From Elusimicrobiales bacterium (lineage in GTDB: Bacteria > Elusimicrobiota > Elusimicrobia > Elusimicrobiales > UBA9959), in assembly GCA_031082205.1 (NCBI GenBank), contig JAVHLJ010000010.1, positions 954 to 64,953 on the forward strand: a stretch of 64,000 bases of DNA, in the 5' to 3' direction. The notes under the pieces are model-generated. The model was not told the origin of the DNA and ran no database searches. It worked only from the letters and a program-made list of their open reading frames with translations. The position numbers and the translations under genes were made by a program. Below are positions 34,733-45,434 of this stretch, one piece after another. How positions within the stretch are numbered: the stretch's first letter is position 1; each line of letters opens with the position of its first letter.

Positions 34733-36135
34733 TTCCCCTCCACGTTATGGCGGCTTGAAGCGCCCCCCTGGGCGCCGCCGGCCGCTGCGCGGCCCGAATT
34801 CCTGCCGTAAAATCCGATTATCCCGTCGGCTATCTCCTTCACCAGCGCGCCGTCCTCTCCCTCCACCAGCACCCGCAGCAGCGGCTCCGTGCCGGAATAG
34901 CGGACGAAGATGCGCCCCTCCCCGCCCATGCGCCCCTCCTGCTCCTCTACCATCTCCGTGAAGCCCGGTATGTTCTCCAGCGGGGGCTTGGACTCCACCT
35001 TCAGCGAACGGACCTCCTGCGGGAAGCGCTTCCAGGCGGCGTGCGCGCTCATGGGGCGGGAGTCCTCCCGGGCGGCGGCTATCACCTGCAGCGCCGTCAG
35101 AAGGCCGTCGCCCGTGGGGGCGAACTCGCGGAATATCGTGTGGCCGCTGGATTCGCCTCCCAGGCTGAGGTCCTCTTTCTCTATGGCCTCGGTGACGTTC
35201 TTGTCGCCGACGGCGACCTGGGTCACGCCGACGCCTATGGAGTGCAGGTACTTGATAAGGCCGCAGTTGGACATCAGGGTCAGCACCACCCTGGAATTCC
35301 TGAGCCTGCCGCCGGCCTTGAGGTGCGGCGCGGCTATGGAGATGATGTCGTCCCCGTCGAGCAGGCGGCCGTTCTCGTCGGAGAGCATGCAGCGGTCGGC
35401 GTCGCCGTCGAAGCTGACGCCGCACCAGGCGCCCCAGGCGGCGGTCTCCGCGCGCATCGGCCCGGTCTCGAGCGCCCCGCAGCCGACGTTTATGTTGGAG
35501 CCGTCGGGGCTGGCCCCGATGACCTTTATCTCGGCGCCGAGTTTCCTGAATACGCGCGGCGCCAGCTCGCTGGCCGCTCCGTTGGCGCAGTCGAGCACCA
35601 CCTTGACGCCGGCCAGGCTGAAGCCGGGCGGCAGGGTCGACAGCAGGAACTCTTCGTAGTCCGCGGAAAAATCAGATTTTTTTATTCCCGGCTCCGCTGA
35701 AGGCACGGCCAGGTCCGGCGAGGCCAGCAGCCTCTCCACGGCGGCCTCGTCGGCGTCGGACAGCTTGAGGCCGTCCGCGGAAAAGAACTTTATGCCGTTG
35801 AATTCCGGGGGATTATGGCTGGCCGAGATGACCACGCCGAGGTCGGCCCCCTCCCTCTTGACCAGGTAGGAGACCGCGGGGGTCGGGATCAGGCCCAGGT
35901 CCAGTATCTCGAAACCGCCGGCGGCGAAACCCTCGGCGAGGGCGGCCTTGATGGACGGGCCGGACCCGCGGGAATCCATGCCTATGATGACGGAGGGCCT
36001 GGCCTTGCGGGACCCGTTGAGGCGAGCCAGCGATACGCTGGCCGCGGCGAAACCTATTTTTTTGACGAAATCGGGCTCGAAGGGATGCCGGCCGGCCAGC
36101 CCCCTTATTCCATCGGTGCCGAAAAGTTTCTTCAT
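34729..36135 (-). CDS. glmM: Phosphoglucosamine mutase
   Basis: FGTDGIRG, SASHNP, DGDADR and RYSGTEP. Confidence 0.96.
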   Translation of the reverse strand: MKKLFGTDGIRGLAGRHPFEPDFVKKIGFAAASVSLARLNGSRKARPSVIIGMDSRGSGPSIKAALAEGFAAGGFEILDLGLIPTPAVSYLVKREGADLGVVISASHNPPEFNGIKFFSADGLKLSDADEAAVERLLASPDLAVPSAEPGIKKSDFSADYEEFLLSTLPPGFSLAGVKVVLDCANGAASELAPRVFRKLGAEIKVIGASPDGSNINVGCGALETGPMRAETAAWGAWCGVSFDGDADRCMLSDENGRLLDGDDIISIAAPHLKAGGRLRNSRVVLTLMSNCGLIKYLHSIGVGVTQVAVGDKNVTEAIEKEDLSLGGESSGHTIFREFAPTGDGLLTALQVIAAAREDSRPMSAHAAWKRFPQEVRSLKVESKPPLENIPGFTEMVEEQEGRMGGEGRIFVRYSGTEPLLRVLVEGEDGALVKEIADGIIGFYGRNSGRAAAGGAQGGASSRHNVEGK

Positions 36136-36209
36136 GAACCCGCTATTATATCATTTAATAATATTGGACCGAATCCCCCCTCCCCCGCCGTTTTGTATAA
36201 TTGAAGGAC

Positions 36210-36297
36210 GGAGGGATGGCCGAGCGGTTTAAGGCGCCGGTCTTGAAAACCGGTGTACGGTTAACCCGTACCGTGGGTTCGAATCCCACTCCCTCCG
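36210..36297 (+). tRNA. tRNA-Ser (TGA)
   Basis: GGAGGGA acceptor, CCGGT-CTTGAAA-ACCGG anticodon arm, long variable arm; TATAAT at 36196; CCA not encoded. Confidence 0.96.
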
Positions 36298-38090
36298 AAG
36301 ATTTTTGCATTTTTCTTTTCCGGAATTTAAATTTAAAATTTCTGCGCGCGCGGAATTAAAATTAAATATAAATTCCCAAGGTTTTTTGAACTCGACGGAA
36401 AGCCGCCGCCTGCCCCTACGGAAGTTTCAGGGCTGGCGCCCTGGGGAAACGCTGGCGCGTTTTCCGAACCAATCTTCTCTTTATGCGCCGCACGTAAGGC
36501 CAGCTTAGCTTTCAGCAAAGCCGGCCTTACGCTCGGCGGAGAGTTGCAGAATAGCACTTAATGCAGGTTTCGCCCTGCTGGGCCAAACCTGCATTAAGAG
36601 CACGGAGGTAAGGTATGCAGAACCTTAATATGCGGTATTTCCTTTACGCCAGAAAATCAACCGACGAGCCGGACCGCCAAATCCTGTCCATAGAGGCGCA
36701 GCTCTCCGAACTGCGCGAGTACGCCCAAAAGGAAGGTCTTACAATCGCCCGCGAGTTCATCGAGAGCAAAACCGCCAAGGAGCCGGGGCGCGAAATCTTT
36801 AATGACATGATCGCCTCTATAGAGGACGGCATGGCGCAGGGCATTATCGCCTGGCACCCGGACCGCCTGGCTCGCAACTCAATAGATGGCGGGCGCATTA
36901 TCTATCTGGTGGACATCGGCAAGATCACCGCCTTGAAGTTCCCTACCTTTTGGTTTGACCCCACACCGCAGGGCAAGTTCATGCTGTCTATCGCCTTCGG
37001 GCAGTCTAAGTACTATGTGGACAACCTCTCGGAGAACATCAAGCGAGGCTTCCGCCAAAAACTTCGCAATGGTATCTGGCCCGCCTGCGCCCCGCTCGGT
37101 TACATCAACGACAAGAACACCAAGACGATCTATCCGGATAAAGACCGGGCGGTCTTTATCCGGAAGACCTTTGAGCTTTACGCCACAGGCGATTACCCGC
37201 TGGCGGAAGTCAGGCGTATAATGAACGGCGTTGGCCTGAAAGGGCGGCATACCACCCTTTCAGTGGGCAACTACCAGTATATGCTTAAGAACCCGGTCTA
37301 TTATGGCCTTATTCGCTACAAGGGCGAACTTTACGAGGGCAAGCATGAGCCCATCATATCCAAGGCCCTCTTCGATAAATGCCAGGAGGTACTGCTTCGC
37401 AAAAGCAAACCCAAAGGGCCGCGCTTAAAGCCTTACACTTACCGGGGCGTATTTCATTGCGCTACCTGCGGTTGCTTCATCACTACGGAAACCCAAAAGG
37501 CGCACAACTACCTGCGTTGCACAAAGCGCAAAGGCTCCTGCGACGAGCCTTTCGTGCGCGAGGAAGTTATTGAGGAACAGATAAAAGGTGAACTAAAAAA
37601 TGTTTCCTTACCCCCGGCCCTGGCCGCCTTGCTTATACAACACGCAGAAGCGGAAAAAGCGGCGGCGGCCCAAGCCGGGGAGAGTGCCCGGCAAAAGCTG
37701 CGAGATAACTTGGTTATCCTTACGGACCAATTGGGCAAGTTGCTGGACCTGGTACTGCAAGGCCATCTTACACAGGCCGAGTACGCCAGCAAGAAAGCCC
37801 AATTGGTCAACGACAAAAAGGAAATTGAAAACAAACTCGCAGCTTTTGCGCGGGAGGGGAGGAATCGGCTCGAACCGCTCAAACGGTTCTACGCGCTCTG
37901 TGAAATTGCTGGGAAATCCGCGGTTTCTGGCAGTCCGTCTGAAAACCTGCAAATAATGAGAAAAATCGGCTCGAACTTCTTTTTGGGCGGGCAAAAAATA
38001 AAATTAAAATTTAATTTTCCGTCGGAGCAGGTGCGGGAGTTGCGGCAGGCGGCGGGCTTCGGAAAGCCCGGTTTTGAGACTTCAGAAATT
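36298..38090 (+). mobile_element. Minimal serine-recombinase element between convergent tRNA-Ser and tRNA-Glu
   Basis: Visibly lower GC than the flanks, a single recombinase gene, a structured leader and short repeats shared by the two ends. Confidence 0.7.
36428..36601 (+). ncRNA. Candidate structured RNA / leader of the recombinase
   Basis: Four hairpins at 36428-36443, 36444-36465, 36487-36537 and 36554-36601 (14-bp perfect stem). Confidence 0.45.
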
Positions 38091-38120
38091 TGGCGCCCCC
38101 TACGGGATTCGAACCCGTGA
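36615..38120 (+). CDS. Large serine recombinase (resolvase + recombinase + Zn-ribbon + coiled coil)
   Basis: GGAGGT RBS; YARKST catalytic motif, DRLARN, LKNPVYYG, HEPIIS and CATCG...YLRC...C; last 30 nt are antisense to tRNA-Glu. Confidence 0.95.
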   Translation: MQNLNMRYFLYARKSTDEPDRQILSIEAQLSELREYAQKEGLTIAREFIESKTAKEPGREIFNDMIASIEDGMAQGIIAWHPDRLARNSIDGGRIIYLVDIGKITALKFPTFWFDPTPQGKFMLSIAFGQSKYYVDNLSENIKRGFRQKLRNGIWPACAPLGYINDKNTKTIYPDKDRAVFIRKTFELYATGDYPLAEVRRIMNGVGLKGRHTTLSVGNYQYMLKNPVYYGLIRYKGELYEGKHEPIISKALFDKCQEVLLRKSKPKGPRLKPYTYRGVFHCATCGCFITTETQKAHNYLRCTKRKGSCDEPFVREEVIEEQIKGELKNVSLPPALAALLIQHAEAEKAAAAQAGESARQKLRDNLVILTDQLGKLLDLVLQGHLTQAEYASKKAQLVNDKKEIENKLAAFAREGRNRLEPLKRFYALCEIAGKSAVSGSPSENLQIMRKIGSNFFLGGQKIKLKFNFPSEQVRELRQAAGFGKPGFETSEIWRPLRDSNP

Positions 38121-38167
38121 TCTCTGCCTTGAAAGGGCAGCGTCCTAGGCCGCTAGACGAAGGGGCC
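38091..38167 (-). tRNA. tRNA-Glu (TTC), CCA encoded
   Basis: GGCCCCT-TC-GTCTAGCGGCCTAGGAC...CTGCC-CTTTCAA-GGCAG...GGTTCGAATCC...AGGGGGCG-CCA. Confidence 0.94.
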
Positions 38168-38193
38168 GTACACCCAGATTATACTAAATTCGC

Positions 38194-38265
38194 AGCCGGC
38201 GAGAGGAATCGAACCTCCAACCTACTGTTTACAAAACAGTTGCTCTACCGTTGAGCTACGCCGGC
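38194..38265 (-). tRNA. tRNA-Thr (TGT)
   Basis: GCCGGCG acceptor, ACTGT-TTTGTAA-ACAGT anticodon arm and GGTTCGATTCC; CCA not encoded. Confidence 0.96.
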
Positions 38266-38321
38266 GTCGCGACCTCTATTATAGGACTTTTTTAAAGGGC
38301 TTGCCGCCGGGCGGCCGCGGG

Positions 38322-38909
38322 TCAGTCGTTGGCGAAGTAGTCCGTCGTTTTCCGGAGGGGGGCGTTCCAGAGGTAGAGCTTGCTGACCTTGCCGTCGTAA
38401 TGCGGGACCGTTATCTCGGCGTCGGGGCGGTATCCCTCTATGCCGAAATCGTGCGAGACTATCCGCGCGCCGGGACGGAGCTTTTTGAGCTGCGGCAGGA
38501 GCTTTACGTTGAGCTCCGGCAGGAGGTAGAGCGTCACCACGGTGGCGCTGCTCAGGTCCAGCCCGAAGATGTCGCGCTCCTCTATGGTTACCAGGCGGGA
38601 GACCTTCTCCTTCTCGGCGTTGAGGCGCGCCTCCTCCACGAGGTCGGGGTCTATCTCGAAGCCCCAGGCCCGGGCCCCGGTGGTCCGGGCCGCGGTGATG
38701 ACTATCCGTCCGTCGCCGCAGCCCAGGTCGTAGACTATGTCCTTGGCGGTCACGCGGGCGAGCCTGAGCATCTCGCGCACCACCTTGTGGGGGGTAGGGA
38801 CATAATCTACGTCGGGGGGGCGGGACGGCCCGCCGGAAGCGGAAGCCGCGGATATGGCGGCGGCGATCAGCGCTGCGGCGACGCTCTTCAACCGGAGTCC
38901 CGGGGTCAT
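38322..38909 (-). CDS. Class I SAM methyltransferase with an N-terminal signal peptide
   Basis: YVPTP, VYDLGCGDGRIV, VVTLYL and GARIVSHDF. Confidence 0.88.
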   Translation of the reverse strand: MTPGLRLKSVAAALIAAAISAASASGGPSRPPDVDYVPTPHKVVREMLRLARVTAKDIVYDLGCGDGRIVITAARTTGARAWGFEIDPDLVEEARLNAEKEKVSRLVTIEERDIFGLDLSSATVVTLYLLPELNVKLLPQLKKLRPGARIVSHDFGIEGYRPDAEITVPHYDGKVSKLYLWNAPLRKTTDYFAND

Positions 38910-38972
38910 AAGTCCCATATTATAATTTTTCGCCCGGGATTTCGTATGATATACCCGGGCCGGGGCCCGTCC

Positions 38973-39599
38973 ATGCTCACCGACGAACTCAGGAAACTGC
39001 TGACACTGGAACATTCCGCCGACGGCGTGACGCTGGGCGAGGTGTTCGGGCGCATCGGCGACCGCGGCTTCGGCCTGCTGCTGCTGATCCTTTCGCTGCC
39101 CAGCGCGCTGCCTTTGCCCGCGCCCGGCTACAGCACCCCGTTCGGCATACTCCTTTTCATCCTGGCGCTGCAGATGATATACGGCCGGCGGACCCCCTGG
39201 CTGCCGGCGCGCGCGGCCGGCCTCAGGCTGAAGGGGAAATTCGTCGGCGCGATGCTTTCCTTCCTCGAGAAGTTCTTCGGCAAGGTGGAGTTCCTTATAA
39301 AGCCGCGGCTGCGCTGGGTGGGCTCGCGCGGCGGACTGGTCTTTCTCGGCCTGCTGGTGCTCATCATGGCTGGGCTGATGATACTCCCGATACCCCTGAC
39401 CAACACCGCGCCGGCTTTCGTTATCTTCCTTATCGGGGTGGGGCTGAGCGAGGAGGACGGCGTATTCTGCCTGCTGGCCGCCGCCCTCGGCGTGATGGCG
39501 ACCGGCGTTTACGCGCTGGTGGTCTACCTGTTCTACCGCTTCGGCGTGGCCGGGCTGGGCCAGATAACCGAGTGGCTCAGGGAGTTCGCCCGGGGCTGA
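38973..39599 (+). CDS. exoD: ExoD family exopolysaccharide synthesis membrane protein
   Basis: GDRGFGLLLL, PWLP, LPIPLTNTAPA and EEDG. Confidence 0.88.
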   Translation: MLTDELRKLLTLEHSADGVTLGEVFGRIGDRGFGLLLLILSLPSALPLPAPGYSTPFGILLFILALQMIYGRRTPWLPARAAGLRLKGKFVGAMLSFLEKFFGKVEFLIKPRLRWVGSRGGLVFLGLLVLIMAGLMILPIPLTNTAPAFVIFLIGVGLSEEDGVFCLLAAALGVMATGVYALVVYLFYRFGVAGLGQITEWLREFARG

Positions 39600-42520: not shown

Positions 42521-43753
42521 TCAGAAGACGCGGCGGAAGTCGCGGAAGAAGCCCGGGTATGATTTGTCCACGCAGCCCGGGCTCTTTATTTTCAGGCCGG
42601 GGCAGGCGGCGGAGGCGGCGGCGGCGGCCATGGCGACGCGGTGGTCGTCAAAGGTCGTCACGGGCCGGAGCGGGCGGAAAGCCTGGCCGCCGGGTACGGT
42701 CAGCGTACCGCCGCGGTACGAGGCCCGCGCGCCCAGCGAGGCCAGCAGTGCCAGGGTGGACGCTATCCTGTCGCTTTCCTTTTTCCGCAGTTCATCGGCT
42801 CCTTTAATGACGGTGACGCCGCGCGCCCGCGCGGCCAGCAGGACCAGCAGCGGCACCTCGTCTATCATGGACGGTATTTCGCGGGCGGAGACCCTGGCCG
42901 CGCGCAGTTCCGAGGGCGATATCTCAATGTCGCCGGCCGGCTCCGGCTTCCCCGCCGCGCGGGTGATCTTTATCCGCGCTCCCATCCTGCTCAGGATCTT
43001 GACGAAGCCCAGCCGGCCGGGGTTGAGGCCCGCCCGCTTTATTTTGAGCGGCCGTCCGGCGAGCAGCGCGGCGGCGATGAAAGGAGCCGCGGAGGAGATG
43101 TCTCCCGGGACTTCCATGGCGCGGCCTCTCAGCGCGCCCGGATATGCGCTGAGGCGGGGGCCGGACCTTTTCAGCCGCGCGCCCATGAATTCCAGCAGGC
43201 GCTCGGTGTGGTCGCGCGACGGCGCGGACTCGCGGAAAGAGACGGGGCGCCGCGCGCCGAGGCCGGCCAGCAGGAGGGACGACTTTATCTGGGCGCTGGC
43301 AGTGGCGAACTTAAGAGTCCCGCCGAGGGGACGGGCGGGGCTTATCGTCAGCGGCAGGCGGCCCCGCGCCGCGCGGACATCCGCCCCGGCCATCCTCAGG
43401 GCGGCGGCCACGGGTCCCATCGGCCTGCGGCGCAGCGTGCCGCGGCCGGTGATCACGGCCGCCGTACCGGACCCGGCCAGCAGTCCGGCCAGCAGCCTGG
43501 CCAGCGTGCCGGATTCGCGGGCGTCGAGGCGGAAGGGGCCGGGGCCGAAGCCGGCGGGCCCCGCGCCGGTTATCTCGAGGCTGTTCCCTGCGGTCTTGAT
43601 CTTTACGCCGAGCGCGCGCAGGCAGCGCAGGGCGGCTTCTGTGTCGCTGGAGCGGAGCGGGTTCTTTACGACGGTACGGCCGCGGGCTATGGCGCCCAGG
43701 AGCAGGGCCCTTATCGTTATCGATTTATCCGGCGGCGGGGTGTAAGTCTGCAT
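42521..43753 (-). CDS. aroA: EPSP synthase
   Basis: DKSITIRA, RRPM, SAQIKS, RDHTERL, KESDR and DDHRVAM. Confidence 0.93.
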   Translation of the reverse strand: MQTYTPPPDKSITIRALLLGAIARGRTVVKNPLRSSDTEAALRCLRALGVKIKTAGNSLEITGAGPAGFGPGPFRLDARESGTLARLLAGLLAGSGTAAVITGRGTLRRRPMGPVAAALRMAGADVRAARGRLPLTISPARPLGGTLKFATASAQIKSSLLLAGLGARRPVSFRESAPSRDHTERLLEFMGARLKRSGPRLSAYPGALRGRAMEVPGDISSAAPFIAAALLAGRPLKIKRAGLNPGRLGFVKILSRMGARIKITRAAGKPEPAGDIEISPSELRAARVSAREIPSMIDEVPLLVLLAARARGVTVIKGADELRKKESDRIASTLALLASLGARASYRGGTLTVPGGQAFRPLRPVTTFDDHRVAMAAAAASAACPGLKIKSPGCVDKSYPGFFRDFRRVF

Positions 43754-44349: not shown

Positions 44350-45434
44350 ATCTCCTCCAGCGCGGCCAGCAGCACCCGCTCGGGTATATTGTCGGCCGGC
44401 TCCACGTCGCCCGGGCTGCGCAGCAGGAGGAACCGGTTGTCGCGGCCGCCGCGCTTCTTGTCGGCGCGCACGAGCTTCAGGAACGCCTTGGGCCGGCGGC
44501 AGGCGGCGGGCAGCGGCAGCGGGTCTATCATGCCGGCGGTTTTCCAGGCGCCGGGGGTGTTGTCCAGGACTTTCATTTTTTCGGACACCTTCAGCGCGTA
44601 GCGCAGGCCCCAGAGGACGGCCTCGCCGTGCGGCAGCCGGCCGCCCGAGAGTATCTCGAAGGCGTGGCCGGCGGTGTGGCCGAAGTTCAGCGTCTCGCGC
44701 AGGCCGGTCTCCTCGCGCTCGTCGGCGGCGCAGACGCCGGCCTTGTACTCGGCGCAGGCCCGCACGCAGGCCAGCAGGTCGCCCGGCCGGCCGGCCATGG
44801 CCCCGTCGAAAGAGCGCATTATGGACAGGCGCAGGTCGCCGGGGCCGATGAGGGCGTACTTTATCAGTTCGCCCGCCGCGGCCCGCCTGACGGCGGGCCT
44901 GAGGGTCGAAAGGAAAGCGGTGTCGCAGACGGTCAGCGCGGGCTGGTGGAAGGAACCGATAATGTTCTTCGTCCCGAGGAAGTCCACGGCGGTCTTGCCG
45001 CCTATGCCGGCGTCTATCTGCCCCAGGAGCGTGGTGGGGACGCTGACCCAGTTTATTCCCCGCATGTAGAGGGAGGCCGCGAAGCCGGCCGCGTCGGTGA
45101 CGGCGCCGCCGCCGGCGGCTATCAGTACGGATTGCCGGCTGAAGCCGGCTTTGAAGAGGTCCGAGCAGAGTTTTGTCACGGCGGCCGGCGTCTTCTCGCG
45201 GCCGGCCGGCAGGGAGAAGCGGCGGGCCTTGGGGGCCAGGGAGGGGCCGAGCATTTTTTTGAGCGCCGGCGAGCCGGCGGCGGAGCGGTCGGTGACGAGC
45301 GCGATATGGTCCGCGCGCCCCAGAACCTCCGGCAGCAGGACGGAGATGTCGCCGACGTTCCGGCCGCAGGCCAGCCTGAAAGAAGGCCTGCGCATGATCT
45401 CCCGGTTAAGAAGGGATAAAACCGTTCTTTTCAA
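44346..45434 (-). CDS. aroB: 3-dehydroquinate synthase
   Basis: GGGAVTDAAGF, VPTTLL, GGKT, LNFGHT and HGEAV. Confidence 0.94.
   Translation of the reverse strand: MKRTVLSLLNREIMRRPSFRLACGRNVGDISVLLPEVLGRADHIALVTDRSAAGSPALKKMLGPSLAPKARRFSLPAGREKTPAAVTKLCSDLFKAGFSRQSVLIAAGGGAVTDAAGFAASLYMRGINWVSVPTTLLGQIDAGIGGKTAVDFLGTKNIIGSFHQPALTVCDTAFLSTLRPAVRRAAAGELIKYALIGPGDLRLSIMRSFDGAMAGRPGDLLACVRACAEYKAGVCAADEREETGLRETLNFGHTAGHAFEILSGGRLPHGEAVLWGLRYALKVSEKMKVLDNTPGAWKTAGMIDPLPLPAACRRPKAFLKLVRADKKRGGRDNRFLLLRSPGDVEPADNIPERVLLAALEEI

What the first reader, a model, noticed from the sequence alone, without database searches (positions are those of the whole stretch)
36396..38068. Putative attL/attR inside the recombinase gene: joining the ends builds a palindrome and swaps the C-terminus
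Seen: CGGAAAGCC occurs at 36396-36404 and 38060-38068 in the same codon phase (C-GGA-AAG-CC). Left of the right copy is GGCAGGCGGCGG (38044-38055). Overlapping and extending right of the left copy is its exact reverse complement CCGCCGCCTGCC (36403-36414). Crossing over at the 9-mer gives a 1664-bp circle whose junction has 12-bp perfect inverted arms 11 bp apart, a palindrome that exists only after joining. It also fuses the enzyme in frame to a new tail (GKPPPAPTEVSGLAPW...LQNST*, stop at 36559-36561) in place of GKPGFETSEIWRPLRDSNP*. Known: serine-integrase attP sites are imperfect palindromes, and att-within-gene switches exist (SSV1 integrase, mycobacteriophage BPs repressor). Inference: directionality may be set by recombination-driven exchange of the enzyme's own tail instead of by an RDF. 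Caveat: the arm spacing is odd-numbered, and other short repeats (TGGCGCCC 36434/38091, CCCCTACGG 36413/38097) are alternative cores.
Basis: partly seen in the sequence, partly recalled or inferred. Interest (0 to 1): 0.85.

Follow-up and report, generated by a model that had tools for sequence, protein, structure and literature searches.

The report
Stranded tRNA-targeting serine integrase cassette

Summary
They are not special. The 12-mer occurs 4 times in the window, and 0 of 41 homologous loci carry the 9-mer at both ends.

Comparison of 161 related loci shows a different architecture:
- A large serine recombinase (LSR) gene runs antisense into the 3' end of a tRNA or tmRNA gene.
- Its last ~44 codons (T, ~134 nt) are repeated, inverted and 93-100% identical, upstream of the gene.
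- That upstream copy continues in frame into a conserved peptide, D (R-x-F-x-DEVRTYFAQHPE, then stop).

Four complete elements show attP (T|core|D), attR (T|core|tRNA) and attL (host|core|D) sharing a 4-6 nt core. The core is the tRNA 3' terminus. The attachment site therefore does lie inside the integrase ORF, and recombination does exchange the C-terminus. It does so at the tRNA end (38091-38097 here), not at 36396/38060.

The window copy is a mosaic:
- an inverted type-ii tail abutting tRNA-Ser;
- a type-ii gene body;
- a type-i 3' end and tail abutting tRNA-Glu.

It has two attR-type junctions and no D, attL or attP, so it is most likely stranded. An assembly chimera is not excluded.

The parts
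36209..36298 (+). tRNA-Ser(tga). Its 3' end (CTCCG, 36294-36298) is the core of a type-ii attR-type junction, and the encoded CCA is missing here.
   Evidence: ARAGORN and Rfam. Same-genus genomes G004, G002 and G006 have ...CCCTCCGCCA|ATATT plus a terminator at this tRNA, which is an empty site. The window has ...CCCTCCG|AAGATTT.
36299..36426 (-). T(ii): inverted copy of a type-ii recombinase tail.
   Evidence: The minus strand translates to NFRRGRRRLSVEFKKPWEFIFNFNSARAEILNLNSGKEKCKNLRR, which is the tail of homolog P0001, then runs antisense into tRNA-Ser. It is 100% identical to L017 over 36360-36419. Logan contigs of runs X2 and X3 join at 36426 on the opposite strand.
36427..36614 (+). 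Hairpin-containing insert (about 36427-36465), a short inner repeat (about 36466-36480), then the 5'UTR with two hairpins (36486-36538 and 36554-36601) and a ribosome-binding site GGAGG at 36601-36605.
   Evidence: Inverted repeats I1 and I2. The same hairpin lies beside the inner end of the upstream T copy in type-ii loci L018, L023, L024 and L031. The segment is 88-98% identical to L017 and L026. The single promoter-like site found (36333-36362, outside this part) is not above chance.
36615..38120 (+). Large serine recombinase ORF, 501 aa. Codons 1 to about 414 are type ii. From about 37800-37860 onward it is type i. The GSN codons lie at 37968-37976.
   Evidence: Pfam Resolvase 1.6e-18, Recombinase 1.4e-12, Zn_ribbon_recom 1.8e-07. 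G452, S453 and N454 are invariant in alignment A1. Mosaic profile. Contigs of X2 and X3 match 36385-37858 with 2 mismatches and then diverge.
37974..38090 (+). T(i): the tail-coding repeat unit of a type-i element (NFFLGGQKIKLKFNFPSEQVRELRQAAGFGKPGFETSEI).
   Evidence: It is 100% identical to L028 over 37980-38099. In L028 the same tail has a 124-nt, 99.2% identical inverted copy upstream. No second copy exists in this genome's assembly.
38091..38097 (.). Core of the type-i attR junction: TGGCGCC, the reverse complement of the 3' terminus (CCA, discriminator and end of the acceptor stem) of tRNA-Glu. It encodes the W-R of the ORF's final WRPLRDSNP.
   Evidence: Position of the tRNA. By analogy with the attP/attR/attL triads sharing GGCGG, TGGCGG or GCGG in L074, L079, L082 and L087. 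An attL-type junction with AAATT-TGGCGC-D lies at about 690-731 on own-genome contig C5.
38091..38166 (-). tRNA-Glu(ttc), the target tRNA. The ORF overlaps it antisense by 30 nt.
   Evidence: ARAGORN and Rfam. Of the 142 related loci that have a 3' end, 113 abut an antisense tRNA or tmRNA in the same way.

Best explanation
The gene at 36615-38120 is the integrase (a large serine recombinase, LSR) of a family of small integrative elements, about 3.4-4.5 kb where both ends are seen. The family is found in Elusimicrobiota and in candidate-phyla-radiation bacteria (record titles).

How the family is built:
- attP lies inside the integrase ORF, between the tail repeat T and a conserved 17-20-codon end, D.
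- Its core equals the 3' terminus of a tRNA or tmRNA gene.
- Integration gives host|core|D ... LSR-T|core|tRNA. The integrated gene loses D and reads on into the antisense tRNA.
- A second, inverted and still translatable copy of T+D sits just upstream of the gene.

The window holds a derived, mosaic cassette: tRNA-Ser | T(ii) inverted | type-ii 5'UTR and body | type-i 3' module and T(i) | tRNA-Glu. It has two attR-type junctions and no D, attL or attP. It therefore cannot excise through the family's sites and is most likely stranded.

It was probably made by homologous recombination between two LSR copies within the stretch 37680-37860, which is conserved across types.

Inferred: that this LSR catalyses the crossover at the core, how the mosaic arose, and that this copy is immobile.
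For: LSR identity: three Pfam domains.

Target:
- Of 161 loci examined (the window, L017-L096 and L109-L188), 19 lack the 3' end.
- Of the other 142, 113 abut an antisense tRNA or tmRNA (Ser, Glu, Asp, His, Gln, Trp, tmRNA).
- 7 more show tRNA-like read-through, 3 end in D, 13 hit a contig end, and 6 are unclear.

Inverted tail:
- 87 of the 142 have an upstream inverted T followed by D. This counts 6 that my pattern missed and that I assigned by eye from the printed peptides.
- 42 reach a contig end on the left, 8 have no inverted T (the window among them), 3 have a tRNA there, and 2 are unclear.
- IR identity is 92.7-100%, typically over 124-134 nt.
- 0 of 88 upstream copies carry an in-frame stop. 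32 are identical to the downstream copy. Differing codons are 61 synonymous and 75 non-synonymous.

D peptide:
- It is present, with a stop at a fixed distance, in 32 of 36 loci with enough left flank.
- 17 of the 120 listed homologous proteins end in it (7 by pattern and 10 by eye). 74 end in the DSNP-type tRNA read-through.

att triads:
- L074, L079, L082 and L087 each show attP, attR and attL sharing GGCGG, TGGCGG or GCGG.
- L082's 3.4-kb element holds no other gene resembling a recombinase by size or composition, only one 420-aa ORF that I did not scan against Pfam.

Own genome:
- attL-type junctions of the form terminator|core|D lie on C83, C16, C5 and C61.
- No D lies on contig C1.

Empty versus occupied tRNA-Ser in the genus: G004, G002 and G006 are empty. 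G005 has tRNA-Ser | inverted T | LSR, as in the window.

Mosaic:
- 36360-37860 tracks type ii (L017, 77-100% per 60-nt window apart from one at 65%).
- 37800-38160 tracks L028 at 95-100%.
- Contigs of runs X2 and X3 carry the same body joined to a type-ii 3' end.

Against: - No read-level or experimental evidence of excision, integration or inversion was obtained. The one raw-read run (X21) did not contain the organism, and Logan contigs cannot show rare forms.
- The mosaic junction is not bridged by a Logan contig under the tool's 31-nt rule. Record 7 of X1 has only 27 nt to the left of 37858.
- The parental fragments that a misassembly would leave behind would mostly be shorter than the smallest contig seen in this assembly (C89, 1549 nt). 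An assembly chimera is therefore not excluded.
- The flanks that follow tRNA-Ser in relatives map to the end of own contig C39, not next to tRNA-Glu. This fits either a real rearrangement or a misjoin.
- Complete attL/attR/attP triads were seen only in 4 candidate-phyla-radiation loci. For Elusimicrobiota the attL junctions sit on other contigs.
- The role of the spare inverted T+D copy is unexplained.
- The AlphaFold model is of low confidence over residues 452-501, so nothing can be said about how the tail folds.
Confidence: 0.7

Rival explanations
1. The 9-mers at 36396 and 38060 are the crossover cores of attL and attR. Recombination releases a 1664-bp circle whose junction is a split palindrome and gives the enzyme a new tail ending LQNST.
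For: The words are present, direct and in phase, with a 12-nt inverted match beside them. Many homologs sit on contigs of 1.6-3 kb.
Against: - 0 of 41 homologous loci have the 9-mer at both ends.
- The left words lie in the inverted type-ii tail and the right words in the unrelated type-i tail.
- The 12-mer occurs at two other places in the window.
- The short contigs are explained by assembly breaks at the ~134-nt inverted repeats.
- None of the C-terminal stretches printed (the last 45-175 residues of about 60 distinct homologs, most of them) resembles the proposed PPPAPTEV...LQNST tail. I did not search for that peptide explicitly.
Confidence: 0.03
2. A self-inverting switch. The recombinase, or RecA acting on the 134-nt repeats, flips the gene body between the two inverted T copies. 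The protein then alternates between a D-ended form and a tRNA-antisense-ended form. The tail repeats exist for this purpose.
For: - Both arrangements occur in assemblies. B-T-tRNA is seen in 113 loci and B-T-D in 3 loci, L076, L122 and L123.
- 17 of 120 proteins end in D.
- tRNA | inverted T | LSR reading away from the tRNA occurs in G005, in L013 (G002) and on the left side of the window.
- The upstream copy is kept translatable.
- The near-identity of the repeats suggests frequent exchange.
Against: - The same arrangements also follow from integration through either of the two inverted attP copies, so they do not prove flipping.
- No reads show both orientations in one sample.
- In the window the two tails are unrelated: blast finds no inverted repeat between them. 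This copy could not flip.
Confidence: 0.25
3. Assembly chimera. Contig C1 wrongly joins a type-ii element at tRNA-Ser to a type-i element at tRNA-Glu through the conserved stretch 37680-37860. The 1.8-kb unit would then not exist as one molecule.
For: - All element types are 80-97% identical over 37680-37860.
- Logan pieces do not bridge 37858 by 31 nt on both sides.
- The flank that follows tRNA-Ser in relatives lies at the end of contig C39.
- An attL-type junction with the matching core lies on C5.
Against: - No contig in the genome carries the missing type-ii 3' end or a type-i body for tRNA-Glu.
- X1 record 7 runs 37832-38024 without a mismatch.
- Run X1 holds 0.82 of the stretch's sampled words.
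Confidence: 0.25
4. An autonomous IS-like transposon. The unit T-LSR-T, with its terminal inverted repeats, moves on its own to tRNA 3' ends.
For: Units flanked by tRNAs on both sides occur in the window and in L096/L171. The repeats end exactly at the tRNA terminus and include 5-9 nt of it.
Against: - In 87 of 142 loci the left flank is the conserved D, not varied host DNA.
- The triads place the element boundary at D', 1.3-2.4 kb further left.
Confidence: 0.07

Closest known systems
Large serine integrases of phages and mobile elements (A118/LI, phiC31, Bxb1, SPbeta SprA)
   Same: Same domain set: resolvase catalytic domain, recombinase domain and zinc ribbon, followed by long helices at 334-416. 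There are weak sequence matches to SPbeta and A118 integrase structures. attP, attR and attL junctions share a short core.
   Different: - The target is the extreme 3' terminus of tRNA and tmRNA genes.
- attP lies inside the integrase's own ORF.
- A ~134-nt inverted copy of the gene's 3' end lies upstream.
- No candidate RDF was looked for or seen.
Searches listed no paper describing such an arrangement. I saw only listings and the starts of abstracts.
SSV-type 'suicidal' tyrosine integrases of archaeal elements
   Same: The recombination site lies within the integrase ORF and integration disrupts the gene (start of the abstract of PMC7253208, seen in listing 63). That these integrases target tRNA genes is recalled and rests on no call here.
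   Different: That family is made of tyrosine recombinases and the gene is split into two parts. Here the enzyme is a serine recombinase and only the last 17-20 codons are exchanged. The body stays intact, and a spare copy of the 3' end is kept.
Integration-dependent immunity of mycobacteriophage BPs
   Same: attP lies inside a coding gene, so the integrated and free forms encode proteins with different C-termini (start of the abstract of PMC4557955, listing 62; the details are recalled).
   Different: There the gene is the repressor and the integrase is a tyrosine enzyme. Here the gene is the serine integrase itself, and no functional effect has been shown.
Genomic islands in tRNA and tmRNA genes (Islander)
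   Same: Site-specific insertion at tRNA and tmRNA genes, with the tRNA kept intact (start of the abstract of PMC4383910, listing 64).
   Different: Those islands are usually integrated by tyrosine integrases, with a displaced 3' fragment of the tRNA. Here a serine integrase crosses over within the last 4-7 nt, so almost nothing is duplicated.
Invertible segments that carry their own recombinase (Salmonella Hin; yeast 2-micron FLP) - recalled, not tested
   Same: A recombinase gene lies between inverted repeats. As in the 2-micron circle, two unique parts are separated by inverted repeats.
   Different: Hin is a small serine invertase with 26-bp sites, and FLP is a tyrosine enzyme. Inversion has not been shown here, and in the window the two repeats do not match.

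Membership tests
Large serine recombinase | N-terminal resolvase-type catalytic domain with the serine nucleophile | tested here: met
   PF00239 over residues 9-154, E 1.6e-18. Y11, R13 and S15 of YARKSTDE are invariant in 34 sequences.
Large serine recombinase | Recombinase domain and zinc-ribbon domain C-terminal to the catalytic domain | tested here: met
   PF07508 over 177-261 and PF13408 over 277-327. Cysteines C282, C285, C302 and C309 are invariant.
Large serine recombinase | Coiled-coil motif after the zinc ribbon | tested here: inconclusive
   The AlphaFold model has long helices at 334-381 and 387-416 with pLDDT of about 75-89. Overall pTM is only 0.33.
Large serine recombinase | Conservative attP x attB recombination at a 2-bp crossover | not testable with these tools
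   Triads share 4-6 nt cores. The exact crossover and the catalysis were not tested.
tRNA-end LSR element family described here | ORF runs antisense into a tRNA or tmRNA 3' end | tested here: met
   The window ORF ends WRPLRDSNP inside tRNA-Glu. 113 of 142 loci do the same.
tRNA-end LSR element family described here | Near-identical inverted copy of the tail upstream, followed by D | tested here: not met
   In the window the upstream inverted tail is of another type and abuts tRNA-Ser. No inverted repeat is found between the two ends. No D lies on contig C1. The window copy is therefore a derived, incomplete member.
SSV-type suicidal integrase | Tyrosine recombinase catalytic fold | tested here: not met
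   Only serine-recombinase domains were found.
DNA invertase (Hin/Gin type) | Small serine recombinase with a C-terminal HTH acting on short inverted sites | tested here: not met
   The protein is 501 aa with the LSR domain set. The window has no matching inverted sites.

The most novel reading that the evidence does not exclude
This family of serine integrases may control its own activity or direction without a separate directionality factor. Integration at a tRNA terminus removes a conserved C-terminal peptide (DEVRTYFAQHPE) from the enzyme. A spare inverted copy of the gene's 3' end would then allow the full-length form to be restored, by flipping the gene body or on excision. The enzyme's tail would thus record and govern the state of the element. 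The window's orphan cassette, and the units flanked by tRNAs on both sides, would be by-products of two attP copies recombining with different tRNA genes and so rearranging the chromosome.
Probability: 0.3. Interest if true: 0.8.

Novelty: new variant of a known kind. Interest (0 to 1): 0.55.

Why it matters
Large serine integrases are prized genome-engineering tools. Their one-way behaviour is normally reversed only by a separate directionality protein. A natural family whose attachment site lies inside the integrase gene, so that the integrated and free forms differ in a conserved C-terminal peptide, offers a directly testable alternative form of control. Its targets, the 3' termini of tRNA and tmRNA genes, are short, universal and well defined.

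The family is abundant in poorly known lineages. More than 500 relatives turned up in each of two collections. Its inverted repeats break many assemblies. For the present window the practical result is more modest: the finding as written is not an att pair, and this copy is probably a dead end.

Tried and rejected
- Structure of the tail. The AlphaFold model built on alignment A1 has pLDDT below 50 for residues 452-470 and 483-501, so I make no claim that the tail completes the zinc ribbon. No fold search was run.
- PDB sequence search. It matched only the N-terminal and recombinase domains.
- Rfam. Nothing but the three tRNAs reached threshold in 35500-39000.
- Promoter and terminator scan of 36150-38300. 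Counts were not above the shuffles.
- Reads. Raw-read run X21 covered only the tRNA genes, so it does not hold this organism. The Logan contigs of X1-X3 show presence and the type-ii form, but they cannot show rare junctions or bridge 37858.
- The T-loop-like word GTTCGAAC. It occurs in the GSN codons, in D and in the tRNA T-loop, and I considered it as the crossover. I rejected it because attL keeps the D sequence between the core and that word, and the word is not conserved in D of Elusimicrobiota.
- G005 contig C14. It could have shown a complete tRNA | inverted T | LSR-T-D element, but it ends inside the gene.
- Synteny of the C5 host flank with the tRNA-Glu region in G004. The match is weak (65%) and in the wrong orientation, so I dropped it.
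- Literature. Searches listed no description of this architecture. I saw only listings and the starts of abstracts, and I read no paper in full. Supplements were not consulted.
Full report
**1. The observation**

- CGGAAAGCC lies at 36396 and 38060.
- GGCAGGCGGCGG lies at 38044, and its reverse complement at 36403.
- The phase of the right copy and the stop at 36559-36561 in the joined frame follow from the sequence.

They are not unusual.
- The 9-mer occurs 5 times in the window, against a mean of 2.06 in shuffles.
- The 12-mer occurs 4 times, twice outside this locus.

**2. What lies there**

- The stretch 36150-38250 has about 50-56% G+C, against 63-72% around it.
- It holds one ORF, 36615-38120, of 501 aa. 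This is a large serine recombinase (LSR) with the resolvase, recombinase and zinc-ribbon domains.
- It lies between tRNA-Ser(tga) on the plus strand (36209-36298) and tRNA-Glu(ttc) on the minus strand (38091-38166).
- The ORF's last nine residues, WRPLRDSNP, are the antisense reading of the tRNA-Glu 3' end. The TGG codon for W is the reverse complement of CCA.

**3. Relatives: the ORF runs into a tRNA**

- The protein search found thousands of relatives (7838 of 8000 scored candidates at E <= 0.001). The best 120 are 40-88% identical (all but one 54% or more). The source names shown for some of the top hits are Elusimicrobiota.
- In an alignment of 34 of them, nearly all end in W-R-x-x-RDSNP.
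- I examined 161 loci: the window, 80 genome contigs and 80 metagenome contigs. Nineteen lack the 3' end.
- Of the other 142, the right-hand neighbour is as follows:

| Right-hand neighbour | Loci |
|---|---|
| Antisense tRNA or tmRNA (Ser, Glu, Asp, His, Gln, Trp, tmRNA) | 113 |
| tRNA-like read-through without an ARAGORN call | 7 |
| The peptide D | 3 |
| Contig end | 13 |
| Unclear | 6 |

**4. The inverted tail**

- In these loci the last ~44 codons (T, about 134 nt) run from just after the invariant GSN codons to the tRNA terminus.
- T is repeated in inverted orientation 115-330 nt upstream of the start codon, at 92.7-100% identity.
- The repeat's outer end includes the last 5-9 nt of whichever tRNA is targeted: TGGCGG, TGGGGTG, TGGTGG or CGGAG.
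- Read outward, the upstream copy continues in frame into a conserved peptide, R-x-F-x-DEVRTYFAQHPE-x-x-x, followed by a stop. This is seen in 32 of 36 loci with enough flank, from Elusimicrobiota to candidate-phyla-radiation bacteria, and the differences include synonymous ones.
- Of the 142 loci, the left-hand neighbour is as follows:

| Left-hand neighbour | Loci |
|---|---|
| Inverted T followed by D (6 of these assigned by eye) | 87 |
| Contig end | 42 |
| No inverted T | 8 |
| A tRNA | 3 |
| Unclear | 2 |

- None of 88 upstream copies has an in-frame stop.
- 17 of the 120 listed homologous proteins end in D, and 74 end in tRNA read-through.

**5. Where the crossover is**

- In L074, L079, L082 and L087 a second inverted pair of 156-209 nt (D and D') lies 1.3-2.4 kb further left.
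- The three junctions T|D, T|tRNA and host|D' share only GGCGG, TGGCGG or GCGG. This is what attP, attR and attL of a conservative recombinase look like, with the core at the tRNA 3' terminus.
- L082's whole element is 3.4 kb. Besides the LSR it holds one 420-aa ORF, which I did not scan.
- Small XRE-type HTH genes lie beyond D in L040 and L074.
- The window's own genome has attL-type junctions of the form terminator|core|D on contigs C83, C16, C5 and C61. It also has further LSR copies at tRNA-Asp (C89 plus C10) and at tmRNA (C49).
- At the window's own tRNA-Ser, three same-genus genomes are empty (...CCGCCA|ATATT plus a terminator). G005 carries tRNA-Ser | inverted T | LSR.

I infer that the LSR integrates a small circle through a site inside its own ORF. 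Excision would then restore the D ending.

**6. The window copy**

- Its upstream inverted tail (36299-36426) is of type ii. The minus strand reads NFRRGRRRLSVEFKKPWEF...KNLRR, as in homolog P0001, and it abuts tRNA-Ser.
- Its downstream tail (37974-38090) is of type i and is identical to that of L028.
- Identity profiles put the switch at about 37800-37860, within a stretch that is conserved in all types.
- Contigs of two public runs carry the same body (36385-37858, 2 mismatches). They continue with about 115 nt that are absent from the window, and then with the reverse complement of 36426-36385. That is a type-ii 3' end.
- The window therefore has two attR-type junctions and no D, attL or attP.
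- I think it arose by homologous recombination between two LSR copies and is stranded.
- An assembly chimera remains possible. The junction is not bridged by Logan pieces. The flank that follows tRNA-Ser in relatives lies at the end of contig C39.

**7.

- The left 9-mer and 12-mer encode part of GRRRLSV on the minus strand of the type-ii tail.
- The right ones encode RQAAGFGKP of the type-i tail. These are not homologous positions.
- The 9-mer is present upstream only in six type-ii loci, present in the tail only in L028, and present at both ends in 0 of 41 loci.
- His alternative core TGGCGCCC at 38091 is the true attR core. Its partner at 36434 is a hairpin that type-ii elements carry at tRNA-Ser genes.

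**8. Open points**

- Why a spare inverted T+D copy is kept is not known.
- B-T-D arrangements (L076, L122, L123) and tRNA | inverted T arrangements (G005, L013, and L096/L171) exist.
- They fit either a flip of the gene body or integration through the second attP copy. I could not tell these apart.

**9. Comparison with what is known**

- This is an LSR by domain content.
- It resembles the archaeal SSV-type tyrosine integrases in having the att site inside the integrase gene (start of the abstract of PMC7253208; their tRNA targets are recalled).
- It resembles mycobacteriophage BPs in changing a protein's C-terminus on integration (start of the abstract of PMC4557955).
- tRNA-gene islands are usually the work of tyrosine integrases (start of the abstract of PMC4383910).
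- My five searches listed no description of a serine integrase with this arrangement.
- I rate it a new variant of a known kind. I rate the finding as written as not an att pair.

Noticed in passing
own genome contigs C89 (1-1549), C10 (1-185) and C49 (57-1592); loci L002, L004, L003: There are two further LSR copies. One is 73% identical, split over C89 and C10, and abuts tRNA-Asp. One is 54% identical and abuts the tmRNA gene. C89 is bounded by the inner ends of its inverted repeats.
   Followed up: partly
own genome C83 end, C16 start, C5 about 690-731, C61 about 8270: Four attL-type junctions (a terminator hairpin, then a tRNA-terminus core, then the D peptide). Three of the four lie at or within about 0.7 kb of a contig end (C61's is about 3 kb from one), which suggests several integrated elements whose repeats broke the assembly.
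   Followed up: partly
window 36294-36300: tRNA-Ser(tga) has no encoded CCA here (CCCTCCG|AAGATT). Five of the six same-genus genomes encode CCGCCA. G001, like the window, lacks it. The element junction replaced it.
   Followed up: yes
window 38133: Many public contigs read G instead of A at the tRNA-Glu anticodon (ttc versus ctc). Same-genus genomes carry ctc at this locus.
   Followed up: no
window 37133-37164, 37691-37704/37836-37849, 37725-37736/37797-37808: Perfect inverted repeats of 15, 14 and 12 nt lie inside the LSR coding region. Their meaning is unknown.
   Followed up: no
L074 154-314 / 2598-2757; L079, L082, L087 likewise: A second pair of near-identical inverted repeats (D and D', 156-209 nt) flanks the cargo segment. 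A complete element therefore has two unique parts separated by inverted repeats.
   Followed up: partly
own genome C39, last 300 nt: A duplicated terminator region with a displaced 14-nt fragment of the tRNA-Ser 3' end. This is the flank that follows tRNA-Ser in relatives.
   Followed up: partly
L010 (G001) and L008 (G004), upstream of tRNA-Glu: Decayed relics. G001 keeps an HTH gene, D and a 32-nt palindrome made of the outer ends of both T copies. G004 keeps about 75 nt of T. Neither has a recombinase gene.
   Followed up: partly
window 42601-42612 and 44498-44509: Two further copies of GGCAGGCGGCGG, in unrelated GC-rich sequence.
   Followed up: no
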